Part shown: in pieces, positions 3,881 to 37,654 of the stretch
Layout: each line of letters starts with the position of its first letter
Position numbering within the stretch: position 1 is the stretch's first letter
Source: Candidatus Pacearchaeota archaeon
GTDB taxonomy: Archaea > Nanobdellota > Nanobdellia > Pacearchaeales > GW2011-AR1
Length of the DNA stretch: 42,106 nucleotides
Direction: 5' to 3'
Assembly: GCA_002687255.1 (NCBI GenBank)
Contig: NYZR01000013.1
Coordinates: 1-42,106, forward strand
The notes under the pieces: generated by a model
What the model was told of the DNA's origin: nothing
Seen by the model: the letters and a program-made list of their open reading frames with translations, nothing else
Database searches by the model: none
Position numbers and translations under genes: made by a program

Positions 3881-4495
3881 ATGAGAGCAGTTGGCACAGA
3901 AGCGCAGCTTGATCGGAGTAGAAAGCGGAATGGGATTATTATTAGTGTGTTGATGTTAGTGTTGTTGGTGGCTAGCTCTGTTGGGTTTGCTTTTCTTTCG
4001 AGTAATCATACGAGTGGTTCTCAGCAAGTTGCTGGGTCTGAGGGCGCTTATGAGGGTTCTGGTGTTGGGGGTTGGGTAGTTCCTGTTCTTGGTCGGGAAG
4101 TAAGGTTGACGTTTGGTCTTGAAGAAGTTGCTGAGATCCCTGTTGCTTTGACGACAGGTATAGAAGCGTATCAAGGGAAGACCTTGTATCTTGCGGTGGA
4201 GAATCCTGGGATCGAGGCAGAGTTGCGGAGCACTATTGGAGTCTTCACTGATCGGATTCAATTGGCTTGCTACGGGGAATGTGAGTTGGATTTGCCGGAG
4301 AAGGATTGTTCGGAGAACGTGATTGTCTGGACGGATGGCGTTGCCGAAGCAAGTTCGGCAGGCCCTCGCAGCTCGGACAAGGTGAACGCTGCTTCGGACG
4401 TTGGCGGGCAGGTGACGCAGGGAGAAGGGTGTGTGTTTATTGAAGGAGATTTAAGGGCTGTTGATGCTTTTCTTTATAAGGTGTTTGGTTACTAA
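3881..4495 (+). CDS. membrane-anchored hypothetical protein (possible class III/pilin-like signal KRNG-IIISVLMLVLLV) carrying an in-frame repeat insertion
   Basis: 204-aa ORF with a TATA at -25, an N-terminal TM segment and a Cys-containing ectodomain. Paralog of 4565..5209. Confidence 0.6.
   Translation: MRAVGTEAQLDRSRKRNGIIISVLMLVLLVASSVGFAFLSSNHTSGSQQVAGSEGAYEGSGVGGWVVPVLGREVRLTFGLEEVAEIPVALTTGIEAYQGKTLYLAVENPGIEAELRSTIGVFTDRIQLACYGECELDLPEKDCSENVIVWTDGVAEASSAGPRSSDKVNAASDVGGQVTQGEGCVFIEGDLRAVDAFLYKVFGY
4343..4399 (+). repeat. structured 57-nt repeat, copy E1 (in frame, 19 codons)
   Basis: GCCGAAGCAAGTTCGGCAGGCCCTCGCAGCTCGGACAAGGTGAACGCTGCTTCGGAC. Near-identical to 36926..36982, and its core is related to 27934..27998 and 12286..12320. 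Confidence 0.7.
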
Positions 4496-4564: not shown

Positions 4565-5209
4565 ATGGCGGCTAGAAAGAAGAAAGAAAAACCATTGTTG
4601 GCTAAAGAGACCAAACACATCTTGATCGGTCTTGCTGTTTTGGCGGTGTTGTTTTTGATTTTGACGTCGGTGTTTGGCAAGTTGGGGACGTTTGAGTATG
4701 AGGGTATGACGTTTGTTCAAGAGAAGTTTGGACAGTTGGATGTGTTCCGGTATACGTATTTTTATGAGGGGATTGAAGGAGATATTCTCCAGTATAACAT
4801 GTTCCTGCGGGTTGACCCTAGGACGAATGAGGTTCCGGTGACGGGCGAGATCGAGCTGCCGGCGAAGAGTCGGCAGATGTATGTGAGTATTGATACTACA
4901 GGGATGGCTCAGTGTGAGTTGAGTGCTGTAGGGATTTCTAGTTTGTCGGCGTTCTTGACGAATAATCAGTATCCTGTGAAGGGGGCGACGCCGTTTGAGG
5001 CAGAGGCGGAGTTGAGAGATATTCCTTTTGCTGACTGCCAGAGCCATCCGGAGAATGCTGTTTTCGTTGTGAAGACTGGTGATGAGACGAAGGTGGAGAA
5101 GCAAGGGAATTTCTGTTGGGTGTTGCAGGCTGCGGATTGTGAGATTGTTGAGGTAGTGGAGAAGTTTGAGGTTGAAACTATTATTCAGGCTAGGGCGAGA
5201 GAGGCTTAG
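4565..5209 (+). CDS. membrane-anchored hypothetical protein (paralog of 3881..4495)
   Basis: 214-aa ORF with a TATA-like AGATTTAAGA about 25 nt upstream, an N-terminal TM segment (ILIGLAVLAVLFLILTSVF) and conserved Cys spacing shared with the neighbour. Confidence 0.6.
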   Translation: MAARKKKEKPLLAKETKHILIGLAVLAVLFLILTSVFGKLGTFEYEGMTFVQEKFGQLDVFRYTYFYEGIEGDILQYNMFLRVDPRTNEVPVTGEIELPAKSRQMYVSIDTTGMAQCELSAVGISSLSAFLTNNQYPVKGATPFEAEAELRDIPFADCQSHPENAVFVVKTGDETKVEKQGNFCWVLQAADCEIVEVVEKFEVETIIQARAREA

Positions 5210-11130: not shown

Positions 11131-11499
11131 ATGGCGATTCGGTCTCGTGAGAATCTGTTTGGGGCATGGGCTTTTTTGGCCGGGATTATCTTAGCCGTTG
11201 TTGTGGGGTTGTTCGCAGGGTCTAATATTAACCCACTTATCTTAGGCATTTTGGCTTTGTTAGGATTAGTTGTTGGGTATTTCGTTTCTGAGAAAGATGT
11301 GCATACCTTTTTGATTGCTTCGGTGTCTTTGGTGATTGTTTCGTTTGCTGGGATTCAAGGCCTTGTTCTTAGTGCAGCTATTGTGGGTATTGATATAGGT
11401 CAGATTATTGCTTCGGTTTTGGGGGCGCTTTTGGTGTTGTTTGTTCCTGCTACGATTATTGTGGCTTTGAAGACTGTTTTTGCTATTGCTCAGAATTAA
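11131..11499 (+). CDS. small polytopic membrane protein
   Basis: 122-aa ORF with about 4 TM segments and GGTTTAAATAG about 25 nt upstream of the ATG. Confidence 0.6.
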   Translation: MAIRSRENLFGAWAFLAGIILAVVVGLFAGSNINPLILGILALLGLVVGYFVSEKDVHTFLIASVSLVIVSFAGIQGLVLSAAIVGIDIGQIIASVLGALLVLFVPATIIVALKTVFAIAQN

Positions 11500-11541
11500 G
11501 CGGGGTTGTTGTTTTTGTTGAGCGAGCTTTTCAAACTTTTC

Positions 11542-11823
11542 TTAAGAAGGGGAGGTTCGAAGGAGAATTGTAGGTGCAAATCTTTGAGTCACTAGAGGTT
11601 TGTAGATGAAATTATGGACGTCACATATATAAACTGCTTTTGCACCCTTTGTTCTTGCCGTGCTGGCGATCTTCCTTTCTAATGCTTCTCTTGAACTTCC
11701 TAAACCGAGAAGACCATACTTTGAAATGTAGTGGGTGTCCCCTACTTCCTTCATCTGGCCTGTGCTTCGTGCATTCTCGAATTCCTGAAGGTTTAGAAAA
11801 TGTATGCCATCTCTCTGTTCCAT
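11542..11823 (-). CDS. hypothetical protein co-transcribed with sepF
   Basis: 93-aa ORF starting 2 nt after the SepF stop. No family recognised. Confidence 0.5.
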   Translation of the reverse strand: MEQRDGIHFLNLQEFENARSTGQMKEVGDTHYISKYGLLGLGSSREALERKIASTARTKGAKAVYICDVHNFIYKPLVTQRFAPTILLRTSPS

Positions 11824-12250: not shown

Positions 12251-12336
12251 TTTAAAGATTTGTGTGATGAACGCAAATCCTAGACTCTCGCCGCTCACAC
12301 CTCATGAGCGCAGCATCGAGTTTAAAGATTTGTGTG
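12251..12336 (+). repeat. repeat copy E2 (54-nt insert) flanked by a perfect 16-bp direct duplication TTTAAAGATTTGTGTG
   Basis: Identical 16-mers lie at 12251-12266 and 12321-12336. The insert at 12267-12320 ends with CTCGCCGCTCACACCTCATGAGCGCAGCATCGAG, which matches 30/34 with the core of 27934..27998. Confidence 0.6.
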
Positions 12337-12400
12337 GTCTGAGATAGGAAAGAGATTATTTATGCTTTTGGTTTGCTTTGATTACCATAATATTTAAGAA

Positions 12401-26841: not shown

Positions 26842-27948
26842 ATGGCCGAGGATGACGTTGTTGTTGAGTCACAAGAAGGGCCTCCGGCAGGGAGTGATAT
26901 CGATCAGGAATTGGAGAGTTTGTTGCAGCAGCAGAGCACTCGAGTGAAAGTGGTTGGGTGTGGTGGGGGTGGGGGCAACTGCGTAAGTCGGATGAAGGAG
27001 ATTGGTATTAAAGGGTGTGAGATTCTGGCCATTAATACGGATGCGCAGGACTTGTTGTATACGAATGTAGACGGGAAGATTCTTGTGGGGCGGGAGCTGA
27101 CAAGCGGTCTTGGAGCGGGGAGTAATCCGAAGATCGGAGAAGAGGCGGCTCGGGAGAGTGAGGCAGAGATTAAGAAGAAGTTGGCGAAGAGCGATATGGT
27201 CTTTATTACCTGCGGTTTGGGTGGAGGGACGGGCACCGGGGCGGCGCCGGTGGTTGCGGAGTTGGCGAAGAAAGGGGGGGCGTTGACGATTGGTGTAGTT
27301 ACCTTGCCGTTTACGGTTGAGGGGCAGAAGCGAATTGAGAACTCGCAGTATGGCCTGGATAAGATGGCTTCTACTTGTGATACCTTGATTGTGATTCCGA
27401 ATGATAAGTTGTTGGAGTTGGCTCCGGAGTTGCCCATTCATACGGCGTTTAAAGTGGCTGACGAGATTCTGACGAATGCGGTGAAGGGGATTACGGAGTT
27501 GATTACCAAGTCTGGTTTGGTGAATTTGGATTTTGCGGATGTGAAGGCGGTGATGTCTCATGGCGGCGTTTCTTTGATTGGTATTGGCGAGTCGGATACG
27601 CAGGAGCGGGCGAAGGATGCTGTGGATAAGGCGATTAACAATCCTTTACTTGATGTAGATATTTCTCAGGCTCAGGGGGCGTTGGTGAATATTATTGGAG
27701 GGAATGATATGTCGTTGGAAGAGTATAAGCAGGTGATGGAGGTGATCGGGACGAAGGTAGCGCCGGATGCGAAGTTGATTTCTGGGGCGCACATCTCGCC
27801 GGATTTGGAGAATACGATTAAGGTGTTGTTGATTGTGACTGGTGTAAAGAGTTCTCAGATTGTTGGGGCAGAGGATGGGATTGGGGTGAGTGAGACGCAG
27901 GCTTTGGAGAAGGAGTTGGGGATTGATTTCGTTGCCGATGATCGCTAG
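26842..27948 (+). CDS. ftsZ: cell division GTPase FtsZ
   Basis: GCGGGGGN, the tubulin signature [13 protein letters not shown], and NTDAQ. GGAAGGAG Shine-Dalgarno upstream. Confidence 0.95.
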
Positions 27949-27998
27949 GCGATCATCGGCTCCTCGCTGCTCACACCGCATGAGCGCAGCTTCGGATG
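27934..27998 (+). repeat. structured repeat copy E3 spanning the ftsZ stop codon
   Basis: GCCGATGATCGC-TAG-GCGATCATCGGC forms a perfect 12-bp stem with the stop codon in the loop. It is followed by TCCTCGCTGCTCACACCGCATGAGCGCAGCTTCGGATG, the core shared with E1, E2 and E4. Confidence 0.65.
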
Positions 27999-31873: not shown

Positions 31874-32866
31874 ATGGCTGCTGAAAAGAAGTTAGGGGCT
31901 GCGCAGGTTGCGGCGTGGAAGACTGAGTCGGTGAAGAAGTTGGCGGAGCAGATGAAAGGAGCGAAGACGGTGTTGTTGGCCTCGATTAAGGGGTTGCCGA
32001 GCGGACAGTTCCATGCGATTAAGAAGCAGTTGCGAGGGAAGGCTGAGATTGCTGTGGGGAAGAAGTCTATTGTGTTGAGGGCGTTGGAAGCTACGGAGAA
32101 GGGGGCGCTGCAGAATTTGAAGAAGGAGATTGGAGCGGACATTGCGTTGTTGTTTTCTGATATGGATGCGTTTGCTTTGTCTGGGCTGTTGACCGAGAGT
32201 CAGAGTAAGATGAAGGCTAAGGTTGGAGATATTGCTCCGGAAGATCTGGTTATTGAGCCGGGGCCAACTGACATGTTGCCGGGGCCGGCGATTTCTGAAT
32301 TGGGTGCGGTTGGACTGCAGGTTGCTGTGGAGGATGGGAAGATTGCGATTAAAGCTGCGCATACGGTTGTTAAGGAAGGGGAAGAGATTTCTGCTAATGT
32401 TGCTGATGTTCTTGGGAAGTTGAATATTGAGCCAATGAAAGTTGGGTTCGGCCCTTTGGCTGCTTATGATGCTGAGGCTGATAAGGTGTATGTGGGTATT
32501 CGGATTGATAAGGAAGGTGCTTTGGAAGCTTTGCGAGAGGCTCTTGGGAAGGCTTTAGGGTTTGCTGTTTCTAAGAGGGTTATTAATTCTGGGACTGTGG
32601 GTTACTTTTTGGCGAAGGCGGAGGCTGGGGCTAAGGCGGTTGAGGGGAAGGTGCAGGAAGAGGGTTCTGAGTCTGAGGGGAAGGAAGATAGCTCTAGTGA
32701 ATCTTCTTCGGAAGGGAATAATGATAAGGAAGAACAACCGGGTAGTGAGGAAGGTGCTGGCGGGGATGATGGTGAGAATGGTGGGGATGCTGGTGCTGCT
32801 GAGGCTGATAAGGCTGAGGAGAAGAAGGAAGAATCAGATGAGGGGGGAAAGAAAGATGGCGATTAG
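31874..32866 (+). CDS. rpl10: ribosomal stalk protein P0 (uL10)
   Basis: AGGAGGT Shine-Dalgarno upstream. VAAWKTESVKKLAEQMKGAKTVLLASIKGLPSGQFHAIKKQLRGKA is typical. The acidic tail ends in KKDGD without the usual hydrophobic terminal motif. Confidence 0.9.
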   Translation: MAAEKKLGAAQVAAWKTESVKKLAEQMKGAKTVLLASIKGLPSGQFHAIKKQLRGKAEIAVGKKSIVLRALEATEKGALQNLKKEIGADIALLFSDMDAFALSGLLTESQSKMKAKVGDIAPEDLVIEPGPTDMLPGPAISELGAVGLQVAVEDGKIAIKAAHTVVKEGEEISANVADVLGKLNIEPMKVGFGPLAAYDAEADKVYVGIRIDKEGALEALREALGKALGFAVSKRVINSGTVGYFLAKAEAGAKAVEGKVQEEGSESEGKEDSSSESSSEGNNDKEEQPGSEEGAGGDDGENGGDAGAAEADKAEEKKEESDEGGKKDGD

Positions 32867-36816: not shown

Positions 36817-36892
36817 GTCGGGGTGAAGGTTTGGGTTTATATAAATGTAAGGATCGGGGAAGTTTTATAAAGCAATTTTTTCTTTGTGGGTG

Positions 36893-37654
36893 ATGTCGAG
36901 CGTTGTAAAGAAGATTTTTGACACTGCCGAAGCAAGTTCGGCAAGCCCTCGCAGCTCGGACTCTGTGAACGCTGCTTCAGATGGAGAAATTGATGAAGAG
37001 GTGCATGGGGCGTTGGTGAAATTTAGTAAGGGGTCTTTTCCGGATAGATGGTTAGTTGAGTCGAAGAAGCAGAAAGATAAGTGGGCGGTGAAGACGAGTG
37101 CGGAGTTTGCGAATTTTCTTGTTCGGGAATGTTTGCCTGCTGAGGGGAATGTGGAGGTGAAGGGTGTTGTTGTTTCTACGGAGAAGCTTGCTGATGTGTT
37201 GGATTTGCCTGTGGAGCGGGTGAAGCAGTTTATGGGAATCAAGCAGAATATTATTTCTGGGGAGATTGAAGTTGAGAAGATTCGGGAGGCTATGGAGAAA
37301 TACCCTCGGGCGTTTTTTGCGTTGTCGTTTTCTACGGATGATTGTGTCTTGAAGATCAAAGCAAAGGCACCGAAGAGTGCGAAGCCGAGCACGAAGGGCG
37401 ATAAGGAAGTGAAGATTGATTTTTGTTCGGTGAAGACGACTAACGAAGAGTTGGTGAGGGATTTGTTGTTCGATTGTCTTGCTGCGAAGCACGTGAGGGT
37501 GTCACATGAGTTTGTTATTTCTGAGATTGAGTTGCCTGCTGGTGTTGAGGATCCTGTGGAGATTCGAGAGAGGGCTGTTCGGAAGGGTGTGTTGAAGCGG
37601 ACTGTTGTTGCTGATGGTGCTGAGAAGCAGAGTGAAGCAGAGTTTGCTGCTTAG
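36893..37654 (+). CDS. hypothetical protein carrying repeat copy E4 near its N-terminus
   Basis: ATG lies about 25 nt downstream of GTTTTATAAAG. The 253-aa ORF has no recognised family. Confidence 0.55.
   Translation: MSSVVKKIFDTAEASSASPRSSDSVNAASDGEIDEEVHGALVKFSKGSFPDRWLVESKKQKDKWAVKTSAEFANFLVRECLPAEGNVEVKGVVVSTEKLADVLDLPVERVKQFMGIKQNIISGEIEVEKIREAMEKYPRAFFALSFSTDDCVLKIKAKAPKSAKPSTKGDKEVKIDFCSVKTTNEELVRDLLFDCLAAKHVRVSHEFVISEIELPAGVEDPVEIRERAVRKGVLKRTVVADGAEKQSEAEFAA
36926..36982 (+). repeat. structured 57-nt repeat, copy E4 (in frame, 19 codons)
   Basis: GCCGAAGCAAGTTCGGCAAGCCCTCGCAGCTCGGACTCTGTGAACGCTGCTTCAGAT. Encodes AEASSASPRSSDSVNAASD, against AEASSAGPRSSDKVNAASD in E1. Confidence 0.7.

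What the first reader, a model, noticed from the sequence alone, without database searches (positions are those of the whole stretch)
36926..36982. Second in-frame copy (E4) of the 57-nt repeat, 11 codons into an unrelated ORF
This copy has the same length, the same reading phase (it starts GCC GAA) and the same strand as E1. It differs from E1 at 6 of 57 positions and encodes AEASSASPRSSDSVNAASD. The host ORFs share no other similarity, so the match reflects nucleotide-level element spread rather than protein homology. Two independent insertions that both preserve an ORF in the same phase suggest either strong filtering for frame-neutral insertions or a phase-specific insertion or translation property of the element.
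Basis: partly seen in the sequence, partly recalled or inferred. Interest (0 to 1): 0.6.

Follow-up and report, generated by a model that had tools for sequence, protein, structure and literature searches.

The report
Mobile hairpin element inside conserved gene
A 57-60-base hairpin-forming piece of selfish DNA sits in frame eleven codons into a conserved gene of a tiny marine DPANN archaeon and is almost certainly translated as a floppy 20-residue loop; it shares its reading phase with its sister copy because only stop-free phases survive, not because the element picks a phase.

Summary
E4 (36926-36982, +) matches E1 (4343-4399, +) at 51 of 57 bases. It lies 11 codons into the ORF 36893-37654 and reads AEASSASPRSSDSVNAASD.

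E4 is a true insertion inside the coding sequence. In 52 homologues, M-x-S-V-I-K-K-I-F runs straight into x-x-x-DEEVH, whereas this genome has about 20 extra residues between them. The ATG at 36893 is therefore the conserved start, and the downstream-GTG idea is unlikely. E1 is also an insertion relative to its orthologues.

The family has 14 copies in this 789-kb assembly. Other coding copies use other phases: GatA and GatB read as PLPKQVRQALAAPG.SQLRTS, and a topoisomerase carries an antisense copy. Phase-specific insertion is therefore not supported. A filter against stop codons, acting on an element whose length is a multiple of 3, is enough to explain the shared phase.

New findings:
- All 14 copies point the same way relative to the G+T-rich DNA strand, whatever the gene direction.
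- Short copies are flanked by target duplications of variable length (8-43 nt), and their first hairpin is an inverted copy of the target.
- No Y1 transposase, TnpB or reverse transcriptase was found in the assembly, which is 63% complete.

The closest analogues are Rickettsia RPEs, intragenic REPs and yeast mitochondrial GC clusters. How the element moves remains unresolved.

The parts
36926..36982 (+). E4, a 57-nt copy of the hairpin element. The inserted block is most likely 60 nt (36923-36982, ACT + 57), encoding T-AEASSASPRSSDSVNAASD.
   Evidence: The 60-nt boundary follows from the spacing KIF-D|GEI-DEEVH compared with 52 homologues, and from the 5' motif CACTGCCGAA shared with copy C38.
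36926..36942 (+). Hairpin 1: GCCGAA-GCAAG-TTCGGC, a 6-bp stem.
   Evidence: fold. Compensatory variants occur in other copies: GTCGAA/TTCGAC in C14 and TGCTGAG/CTCAGCA in C1.
36943..36950 (+). Conserved C-rich linker, AAGCCCTC.
   Evidence: Alignment A2.
36951..36975 (+). Hairpin 2: GCAGC-TCGGACTCTGTGAAC-GCTGC. This is the conserved core of the family. E1 and E4 have the middle pair as A-U; 10 of the other 11 aligned copies have U-A (E2 has a mismatch there).
   Evidence: 98% of cells paired; one covarying pair.
36976..36982 (+). 3' terminal motif TTCAGAT (family consensus TTCGGAC/T).
36893..37654 (+). Host gene: a conserved 253-aa protein of unknown function. E4 encodes residues 12-30.
   Evidence: Orthologues in 59 of 61 relatives. 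851 homologues at E<=1e-10, none with the insert among the 52 aligned. AlphaFold2 pLDDT 90.8, with a helix at residues 4-17, residues 18-33 in coil, and pLDDT below 50 at residues 24-29.
36864..36871 (+). TATA-box-like TTTATAAA, 22 nt before ATG 36893. It fits a leaderless or short-leader mRNA that begins at the conserved start.
   Evidence: The same TTTATAA-to-ATG spacing is seen upstream of the orthologues. The promoter role is inferred.
4343..4399 (+). E1, the sister copy, in frame in the membrane-anchored protein gene 3881-4495.
   Evidence: Eight orthologues lack the 19-20 residues.
12283..12322 (+). E2, a short-form copy (core only), flanked by 16-nt direct repeats at 12251-12266 and 12321-12336.
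27935..27998 (+). E3, a short-form copy at the end of the 26842-27948 ORF (ftsZ according to an earlier first-reader note, e1-3347423; not checked here). Hairpin 1 (27935-27959) contains that ORF's stop codon; the core is 27959-27998.

Best explanation
E4 is one of 14 copies of a lineage-specific, GC-rich miniature element, non-autonomous on present evidence. In its long form the element is 57-60 nt and consists of a hairpin, a C-rich linker, a conserved second hairpin, and the terminal motif TTCGGA(C/T). It was copied into the coding sequence of a conserved gene between codons 10/11 and the DEEVH motif. Because its length is a multiple of 3 and this phase has no stop codon, the gene stays open. 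The element is most likely translated as a disordered, Ser/Ala/Asp-rich linker of about 20 residues between the N-terminal helix and the body of the protein.

E1 and E4 are sister copies: they alone share the GCAGC...GCTGC form of hairpin 2. They share a phase for two reasons. First, orientation is fixed by the DNA strand: every copy has the same polarity relative to the G+T-rich strand, and both host genes are sense on that strand. Second, only two sense phases of this subfamily lack a stop codon.

Shown here: the insertion itself, the conserved start codon, the family census, the use of several phases, and the strand rule. Inferred: that the insert is translated, and how the element moves. 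My best guess for the mechanism is a copy process that is strand-specific and acts on single-stranded DNA or at the replication fork, with its enzyme supplied in trans or by the host. This guess rests on the strand polarity, the variable-length target duplications and the target-derived first hairpin of the short copies. I give that mechanism about 0.35.
For: - Insertion and start codon: the own protein reads MSSVVKKIFDT[AEASSASPRSSDSVNAASD]GEIDEEVH. Twelve genome orthologues and 52 database homologues read M.SVIKKIF-xxxx-DEEVH without a break. The nearest homologue, P0004, reads MSSVIKKIFDGVSDEGIH.
- The protein on record from the primary assembly also starts at this ATG (P0003).
- E1 is likewise absent from 8 orthologues.
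- Census: nhmmer and a covariance model each find the same 14 copies.
- Other coding copies: GatB and GatA in another sense phase, a TopoIII-like gene in antisense, and the C-terminal tail of a PEP-synthase-like gene. The insertions were checked against solved homologues 3h0l_B, 3h0l_A and 6k8n_A.
- Stop-codon pattern by phase.
- Strand rule: 14 of 14 copies lie with the same polarity on the G+T-rich strand (two-sided p = 1.2e-4), including copies antisense to, or downstream of, opposite-strand genes.
- AlphaFold2 places the insert in a low-confidence coil between two confident helices.
- Not a known RNA: no Rfam match at E<=1.
- Lineage-specific: absent from 400 other genomes of the order, except for a mini version in G378.
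Against: - There is no direct evidence of translation, transcription or mobility.
- No close strain with an empty site exists in the protein database; the nearest homologue was listed at 58% identity in the database search (64% in alignment A3).
- E4 has no recognisable target duplication.
- No transposase, TnpB or reverse transcriptase was found in the assembly. The assembly is only 63% complete, so neither mobilisation in trans nor a host-enzyme mechanism can be confirmed.
- Conservation of the 10 upstream codons would also be expected soon after a recent insertion even if the start had shifted downstream.
Confidence: 0.8

Rival explanations
1. E4 is not coding. After the insertion, translation of the host gene moved to a downstream start (in-frame GTG at 37001), so E4 lies in a 5' leader and its in-frame status is coincidental. 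It might then act as a leader hairpin.
For: An in-frame GTG exists at 37001. The literature notes that many REPs annotated at the 5' ends of ORFs are probably not coding (PMC3733652). The homology-rich part of the protein starts right after E4.
Against: The 9-10 residues upstream of E4 match the family's conserved N-terminus; I8 is at least 90% conserved. AlphaFold2 places residues 1-10 with pLDDT 92. The TATA box sits about 22 nt before ATG 36893, as in the orthologues, which suggests a leaderless mRNA that would initiate at that ATG. There is no well-spaced Shine-Dalgarno motif before the GTG: GAGG abuts it and GGAG lies 15-18 nt upstream (read). E4 contains no stop codon in this phase.
Confidence: 0.07
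2. The element is removed from the transcript. It would be an archaeal bulge-helix-bulge intron, or another self-excising RNA, so the mature protein lacks the 19-20 residues.
For: The element is hairpin-rich. Archaeal splicing endonuclease is known to process a few mRNAs (general knowledge). Removing 57 or 60 nt would keep the frame.
Against: A scan for a canonical helix-bulge(3)-helix(4)-bulge(3)-helix motif at the boundaries of E1, E4, GatA, GatB and the Topo copy found nothing at homologous positions. Copies inside genes avoid stop codons in the phase that is read, which an intron would not need to do. One copy is antisense to its host mRNA. There is no Rfam match. Relaxed BHB forms were not excluded.
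Confidence: 0.04
3. The repeat is kept for a host function, such as a regulatory RNA or DNA hairpin or a useful flexible peptide linker, and spread by recombination. It is not selfish mobile DNA.
For: Hairpin 2 and its flanks are strongly conserved (98% of cells paired). A compensatory stem variant, GCTAC/GTAGC, occurs in another genus. Several copies sit exactly at gene ends or in promoters.
Against: The contexts are heterogeneous: three reading phases, an antisense copy, promoters and 3' ends. The family is confined to one genome of 401 in the order, plus one mini version. No common peptide is encoded. Orientation follows the DNA strand and not transcription: at least 3 copies are antisense to the gene they lie in or beside (Topo, C38, C20), against 14/14 for the strand rule.
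Confidence: 0.08
4. Rival mechanism: an ordinary cut-and-paste MITE, or an IS200/IS605-type PATE/REP, mobilised by a classical transposase or Y1 HUH enzyme encoded in the unassembled 37% of the genome or in the host or a virus.
For: The long form has an 8-bp terminal inverted repeat, CCGAAGCA...TGCTTCGG (read). Strict strand polarity is a hallmark of single-strand transposition into the lagging-strand template (PMC5027513 and PMC6006769). PATEs are reported in other DPANN genomes by earlier notes.
Against: There is no fixed-length target duplication; flanking repeats range from 0 to 43 nt. IS200/IS605 elements make none at all. The two hairpins are unlike each other. No conserved target tetranucleotide is evident. 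PF01797 and PF07282 are not found above cut-off.
Confidence: 0.3

Closest known systems
Rickettsia palindromic elements (RPE-1 and the short RPE-4/RPE-6; Ogata et al. 2000, as reviewed in PMC10969869 and PMC3733652)
   Same: Short hairpin-forming repeats in a small, reduced genome. They are inserted in frame into unrelated housekeeping genes without breaking them, add hydrophilic peptide segments, and have no transposase of their own.
   Different: This element is archaeal (DPANN/Pacearchaeota-like) and was not detected outside this lineage. It is 57-60 nt against about 150 nt for RPE-1. It is read in several phases and in antisense. All copies have one polarity relative to the DNA strand skew. 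Short copies carry variable target duplications and a target-derived first hairpin. I did not find these last two features described for RPEs in the papers read.
REP elements (GTAG- or CGTC-tagged) and their RAYT transposases; intragenic REPs (PMC3733652)
   Same: Palindromic units of 20-40 nt. Some lie inside ORFs and encode 20-30 residues, and some supply stop codons at gene ends, as E3 and C19a do here. CGTC REPs also lack a dedicated transposase.
   Different: There is no GTAG or CGTC tag; the conserved end is TTCGGA(C/T). No RAYT (Y1) gene was found. The unit has two unlike hairpins.
IS200/IS605 single-strand transposons and their gene-less PATE derivatives (PMC5027513, PMC6006769, PMC3119063)
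   Same: Subterminal hairpins, one active strand, and a strict orientation bias tied to replication-strand asymmetry.
   Different: Those elements insert without a target duplication, 3' of a fixed tetra- or pentanucleotide, and need TnpA. Here the flanking repeats vary (0-43 nt), no fixed target was seen and no TnpA was found.
Palindromic GC clusters of yeast mitochondrial DNA (e.g. GC42; PMC4478555)
   Same: GC-rich palindromic mini-elements in an AT-richer small genome. They proliferate without an encoded enzyme, and they merge and shuffle to make new variants. Compare the long and short forms here and the 83-nt GatA/GatB variant.
   Different: A different domain of life and a different sequence. 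The strand polarity rule and the in-frame housekeeping-gene insertions are what I tested here; I did not check whether GC clusters show them.

Membership tests
Rickettsia palindromic elements (RPE) | Dispersed hairpin-forming repeat inserted in frame in unrelated protein genes, absent from orthologues | tested here: met
   E4, E1, GatA, GatB and the Topo copy.
Rickettsia palindromic elements (RPE) | Sequence membership in one of the described RPE families (Rickettsia/Wolbachia lineage) | not tested
   No RPE sequences were compared. The element was not detected outside this lineage: none of 400 other genomes of its order has it apart from a mini version in G378, and an exact-pattern scan of the genome and metagenome collections returned 3 stretches that I took for chance matches without inspecting them. 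It works like an RPE but is not filed as one.
MITE (classical) | Terminal inverted repeats | tested here: inconclusive
   The long form has the 8-bp pair CCGAAGCA/TGCTTCGG, with 1 mismatch in E4. The short forms (E2, E3, C20, C5) lack it.
MITE (classical) | Target-site duplication of fixed length | tested here: not met
   Flanking repeats are absent (E4, Topo, C14) or measure about 8, 9-11, 14-27, 16 or 43 nt.
MITE (classical) | Parent autonomous IS with the same ends in the genome | tested here: not met
   All 14 model hits are short copies. No transposase domains were found. The assembly is only 63% complete.
REP/RAYT | GTAG or CGTC terminal tag on a 20-40 nt palindrome | tested here: not met
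   The conserved terminus is TTCGGA(C/T).
REP/RAYT | Associated Y1 (RAYT) transposase gene | tested here: not met
   PF01797 has no match at E<=1 in the own genome, while the positive controls matched.
IS200/IS605-derived PATE | Strand-specific orientation (top strand on one replication strand) | tested here: met
   14 of 14 copies are on the G+T-rich strand. Polarity is uniform within all contigs.
IS200/IS605-derived PATE | No target duplication; insertion 3' of a fixed short target; similar left and right hairpins bound by TnpA | tested here: not met
   Direct repeats of variable length. The 5' neighbours vary: CGTT, CTTT, CATT, CACT. The two hairpins are unlike each other.
Archaeal bulge-helix-bulge intron | Canonical hBHBh' motif spanning both boundaries | tested here: not met
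   No consistent motif at the boundaries of five copies inside genes.
Any Rfam RNA family | Covariance-model match | tested here: not met
   Only a tRNA in the window at gathering score. Nothing at E<=1 in 36850-37050.

The most novel reading that the evidence does not exclude
The family spreads by an undescribed, transposase-free 'copy-in' route tied to one DNA strand. One version would be template switching of a nascent strand at the replication fork onto another copy exposed on the single-stranded template. This would explain the three features together. The first is that all copies have the same polarity on the G+T-rich strand. The second is that short copies are flanked by target duplications of 8-43 nt, which sometimes restore a gene's last codons or its TATA box. 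The third is that the first hairpin of short copies is an inverted copy of the local target. The same route might also underlie the larger cassettes in this lineage that earlier notes describe as bracketed by duplicated gene ends.
Probability: 0.2. Interest if true: 0.75.

Novelty: new variant of a known kind. Interest (0 to 1): 0.45.

Why it matters
E4 settles a question about this family: the element really does sit inside a conserved reading frame, not in a mis-annotated leader. DPANN archaea therefore tolerate selfish hairpin DNA inside core genes (GatA, GatB, a topoisomerase and a near-universal unknown protein), as Rickettsia does. The strict strand polarity, together with the variable duplications containing target-derived sequence, gives a concrete and testable handle on how such enzyme-less mini-elements move in tiny genomes. 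That question is still open for RPEs, CGTC REPs and mitochondrial GC clusters. There is also a practical lesson for annotation: low-complexity inserts in DPANN proteins can be mobile DNA and not lineage-specific protein features.

Tried and rejected
- Downstream start (GTG 37001): rejected on N-terminal conservation and promoter spacing.
- Canonical BHB intron: no consistent motif.
- Known RNA family: none.
- Thermodynamic stability: single-sequence folds are not more stable than shuffles (z = -0.6 to -1.2 for E1 and E4). The structure argument therefore rests on comparing copies. Hairpin 2 shows only one covarying pair within this genome, plus the G378 variant.
- 'Designed' stop-freeness: rejected. 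4-5 open phases out of 6 is ordinary for this composition.
- C/D-box reading of the E2 region: considered by eye and dropped, because there are no proper internal boxes.
- Exact-pattern scans of genome contigs and metagenome contigs: 3 hits in all, including bacterial MAGs; taken as chance and not inspected.
- Search for an empty-site strain through the protein database: the nearest homologue was listed at 58% identity, so none was found.
- Y1 transposase, TnpB and reverse transcriptase in the own genome: none above cut-off.
- PDB fold search for the host protein: no match.

Full report
**1. The observation**

The window (42,106 nt) is part of contig C13 of a 789-kb assembly in 54 contigs. The assembly is 63% complete and comes from a small archaeon of the DPANN/Pacearchaeota type. 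Homologues of the host protein are annotated as Pacearchaeota or Nanoarchaeota.

Bases 36926-36982 (+) read GCCGAAGCAAGTTCGGCAAGCCCTCGCAGCTCGGACTCTGTGAACGCTGCTTCAGAT. The repeat finder pairs 36925-36981 with 4342-4398 at 91% identity (D7). The two 57-mers differ at 6 positions: 19, 37-39, 54 and 57. E4 begins 33 nt after the ATG at 36893, in frame, and reads AEASSASPRSSDSVNAASD. E1 is in frame in 3881-4495 and reads AEASSAGPRSSDKVNAASD. No shuffle of the window gave a match with up to 3 mismatches.

**2. Is E4 inside the coding sequence?**

The host protein has orthologues in 59 of 61 related genomes and 851 homologues at E<=1e-10 in the large protein collection. I read the upstream DNA of the orthologues and aligned 52 homologues.
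- The family starts M-x-S-V-I-K-K-I-F, followed by four variable residues and then D-E-E-V-H.
- The nearest homologue, P0004, reads MSSVIKKIFDGVSDEGIH.
- This genome reads MSSVVKKIFDT[AEASSASPRSSDSVNAASD]GEIDEEVH.
- None of the 52 homologues has the insert; one has 3 extra residues.

The ATG at 36893 is therefore the family's conserved start, and about 20 residues have been inserted behind codon 10/11. Treating the insert as 60 nt (36923-36982, ACT + 57) restores the family's four-residue spacing (KIF-DGEI-DEEVH). It also matches the 5' motif CACTGCCGAA that E4 shares with copy C38.

A TATA-like TTTATAAA lies 22 nt upstream of the ATG. The orthologues show the same arrangement, which fits a leaderless or short-leader mRNA. 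It has no well-spaced Shine-Dalgarno motif.

An AlphaFold2 model built with the 53-sequence alignment is confident (pLDDT 90.8, pTM 0.87). Residues 1-10 score 92 and residues 4-17 form a helix. Insert residues 18-33 are coil, with pLDDT below 50 at residues 24-29, and the next helix starts at residue 35. The insert sits in a linker where a floppy loop should be tolerated.

E4 is thus a genuine in-frame insertion that is most probably translated.

**3. E1 is also a true insertion**

Eight orthologues of 3881-4495 run from ...IVW-xxx directly to ...xxV-Q-xxx-C-V-F-I-E-G without the 19-20 residues.

**4. The family**

A profile search and, independently, a covariance model of the conserved core each find the same 14 copies in the genome. 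The architecture is:
- Hairpin 1: GCCGAA-GCAAG-TTCGGC in the long form.
- A C-rich linker: (A/G)GCCCTC.
- Hairpin 2: GCWGC-TC...GARC-GCWGC.
- The terminal motif TTCGGA(C/T).

E1 and E4 alone have GCAGC...GCTGC in hairpin 2. Ten of the other eleven aligned copies have GCTGC...GCAGC, and E2 has a C-A mismatch at the middle pair. E1 and E4 are therefore sister copies.

Copies inside verified genes:
- E1, E4 and a partial copy in the C-terminal tail of a PEP-synthase-like gene are read as ...AASD.
- GatB (C25) and GatA (C7) are read in another sense phase, as PLPKQVRQALAAPG(G/R)SQLRTS.
- A topoisomerase III-like gene (C18) carries an antisense copy, read as LSEAALTKSEQQGPAELASAT.

Against solved homologues:
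- GatB has about 43 extra residues at that point (3h0l_B).
- GatA has about 31 extra (3h0l_A).
- The topoisomerase has about 59 extra (6k8n_A).

The remaining copies lie at gene 3' ends, in promoters or between genes.

The sense phase used in GatA and GatB normally carries a TGA, which comes from the GTGAAC loop. The GatA/GatB variant lacks that TGA. The number of open phases (5 of 6 in E1, 4 of 6 in E4) is ordinary for this base composition.

It follows that there is no phase-specific insertion. An element whose length is a multiple of 3, plus loss of insertions that introduce a stop codon, is sufficient.

**5. Strand rule (new)**

Every one of the 14 copies has the same polarity relative to the locally G+T-rich DNA strand (two-sided p = 1.2e-4). 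G+T polarity is uniform within every contig. The rule holds for:
- the copy antisense to the topoisomerase gene;
- the copy downstream of an opposite-strand permease gene;
- the copy in the 5' region of an opposite-strand gene.

Orientation therefore tracks the DNA strand and not transcription. This fixes E1 and E4 in the sense direction. With two stop-free sense phases, they would share a phase about half the time by chance.

**6. Footprints (new)**

In the short-form copies, direct repeats of the target abut the TTCGGA end:

| Copy | Flanking direct repeat |
|---|---|
| E2 | 16 nt, includes a TATA box |
| C20 | 9-11 nt, also TATA-like |
| E3 | about 8 nt |
| C19a | 14 nt, extendable to 27 nt |

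In each of these copies, the 3' arm of hairpin 1 is the reverse complement of sequence inside the upstream repeat copy. Hairpin 1 therefore differs from copy to copy and is derived from the target.

At C19a the two repeat copies encode the last eight codons plus the stop of the upstream ORF: ALKVLSRC* against FKVLSRC*. They differ mostly at synonymous positions, for example AGT against TCG for Ser.

The only related element in 400 other genomes of the order is in G378. It is a 33-nt mini version, TCCCCA-AGCCCTC-GCTAC-TCAC-GTAGC-TTCGGA. Two copies sit between three perfect 43-nt repeats of a gene's 3' end, and its stem is compensatory relative to GCTGC/GCAGC.

E4 itself shows no flanking repeat. 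E1 shows an 8-nt repeat with one mismatch, CGTTGCCG/CGTTGGCG.

**7. Mechanism**

The assembly has no Y1 transposase (PF01797), no TnpB zinc-ribbon domain above cut-off, and no reverse transcriptase (PF00078). The assembly is incomplete, so this absence is weak evidence.

The published mechanisms compare as follows:
- Strict strand polarity is known for single-strand transposition into the lagging-strand template (PMC5027513 and PMC6006769). However, IS200/IS605 elements make no target duplication and need a fixed target.
- Classical MITEs make fixed-length duplications, which is not what is seen here.
- Variable duplications plus inverted copies of the target look more like templated insertion by strand switching.

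I therefore commit only to a strand-specific copy process linked to single-stranded DNA or to the replication fork (about 0.35). I keep HUH/DDE mobilisation in trans as a strong rival (about 0.3).

A canonical bulge-helix-bulge intron is not supported, and no Rfam family matches.

**8. Comparison with known elements, and verdict**

Functionally the element behaves like several known repeats:
- Rickettsia RPEs;
- intragenic REPs, which can also supply stop codons, and whose position at the 5' ends of ORFs raises the same question of whether they are coding (PMC10969869 and PMC3733652);
- yeast mitochondrial GC clusters (PMC4478555).

It fails the defining tests for a classical MITE, for REP/RAYT and for an IS200/IS605 PATE (see the membership table). 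I file it as a new variant of a known kind.

Earlier notes of this scan had already called E1 and E2 RPE-like mobile hairpins, and they describe similar one-orientation mini-repeats in other DPANN genomes. I used those notes as leads only.

This report adds:
- proof that E4 is inside the coding sequence;
- the genome-wide census and use of reading phases;
- the strand rule;
- the target-derived first hairpin.

Overall interest is moderate. E4 by itself is one more copy of the family, but as a whole the family offers a testable route to the mechanism.

Noticed in passing
window 36893-37654: The host protein belongs to a near-universal family of this archaeal order: 59 of 61 relatives and 851 homologues, about 234 aa each. 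It has no Pfam domain. Its AlphaFold2 model is confident (pLDDT 90.8, pTM 0.87), yet no PDB fold match was found (best E 0.06, TM below 0.2). It may be an uncharacterised fold.
   Followed up: partly
G000 contig C25, about 11430-11560 (minus strand; GatB): The GatB insertion is about 43 residues. The hairpin element (an 83-nt variant shared with GatA on C7) is followed by a second small hairpin unit, CAGTTGCGGCCTGGAGGCCGCTCGGATGCCGCA, bracketed by GTTATCC repeats. This may be a second mini-element family or a nested insertion.
   Followed up: no
G000 contig C19, 32575-32690: Copy C19a is bracketed by two versions of the last eight codons plus stop of the ORF 32249-32605 (ALKVLSRC* and FKVLSRC*). 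They differ mostly synonymously (AGT/TCG Ser, TGC/TGT Cys). Earlier notes report the same kind of scar for 1-kb cassettes in this window.
   Followed up: partly
L050 (G378 contig C28, about 4740-4935): A relative in another genus carries two copies of a 33-nt mini version of the element, alternating with three perfect 43-nt repeats of a gene's 3' end (...DYGK*). This looks like a tandem amplification of target plus element.
   Followed up: partly
G000 contig C18, 239-2548: The topoisomerase III-like protein has about 59 extra low-complexity residues around the antisense element copy. It also has a second Ser/Thr/Gly-rich insert further downstream. Low-complexity inserts seem common in core proteins of this genome.
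   Followed up: no
whole assembly (all contigs over 8 kb): G+T excess keeps one sign along the whole length of every contig, with no polarity switch captured in 54 contigs. Replication origins or termini were therefore not sampled, or they coincide with contig breaks.
   Followed up: partly
window 12262-12345: The E2 region, together with its flanking 16-nt repeats, folds more stably than shuffled sequence (z = -2.8). The repeat copies pair with the inverted target copy inside the insert.
   Followed up: no
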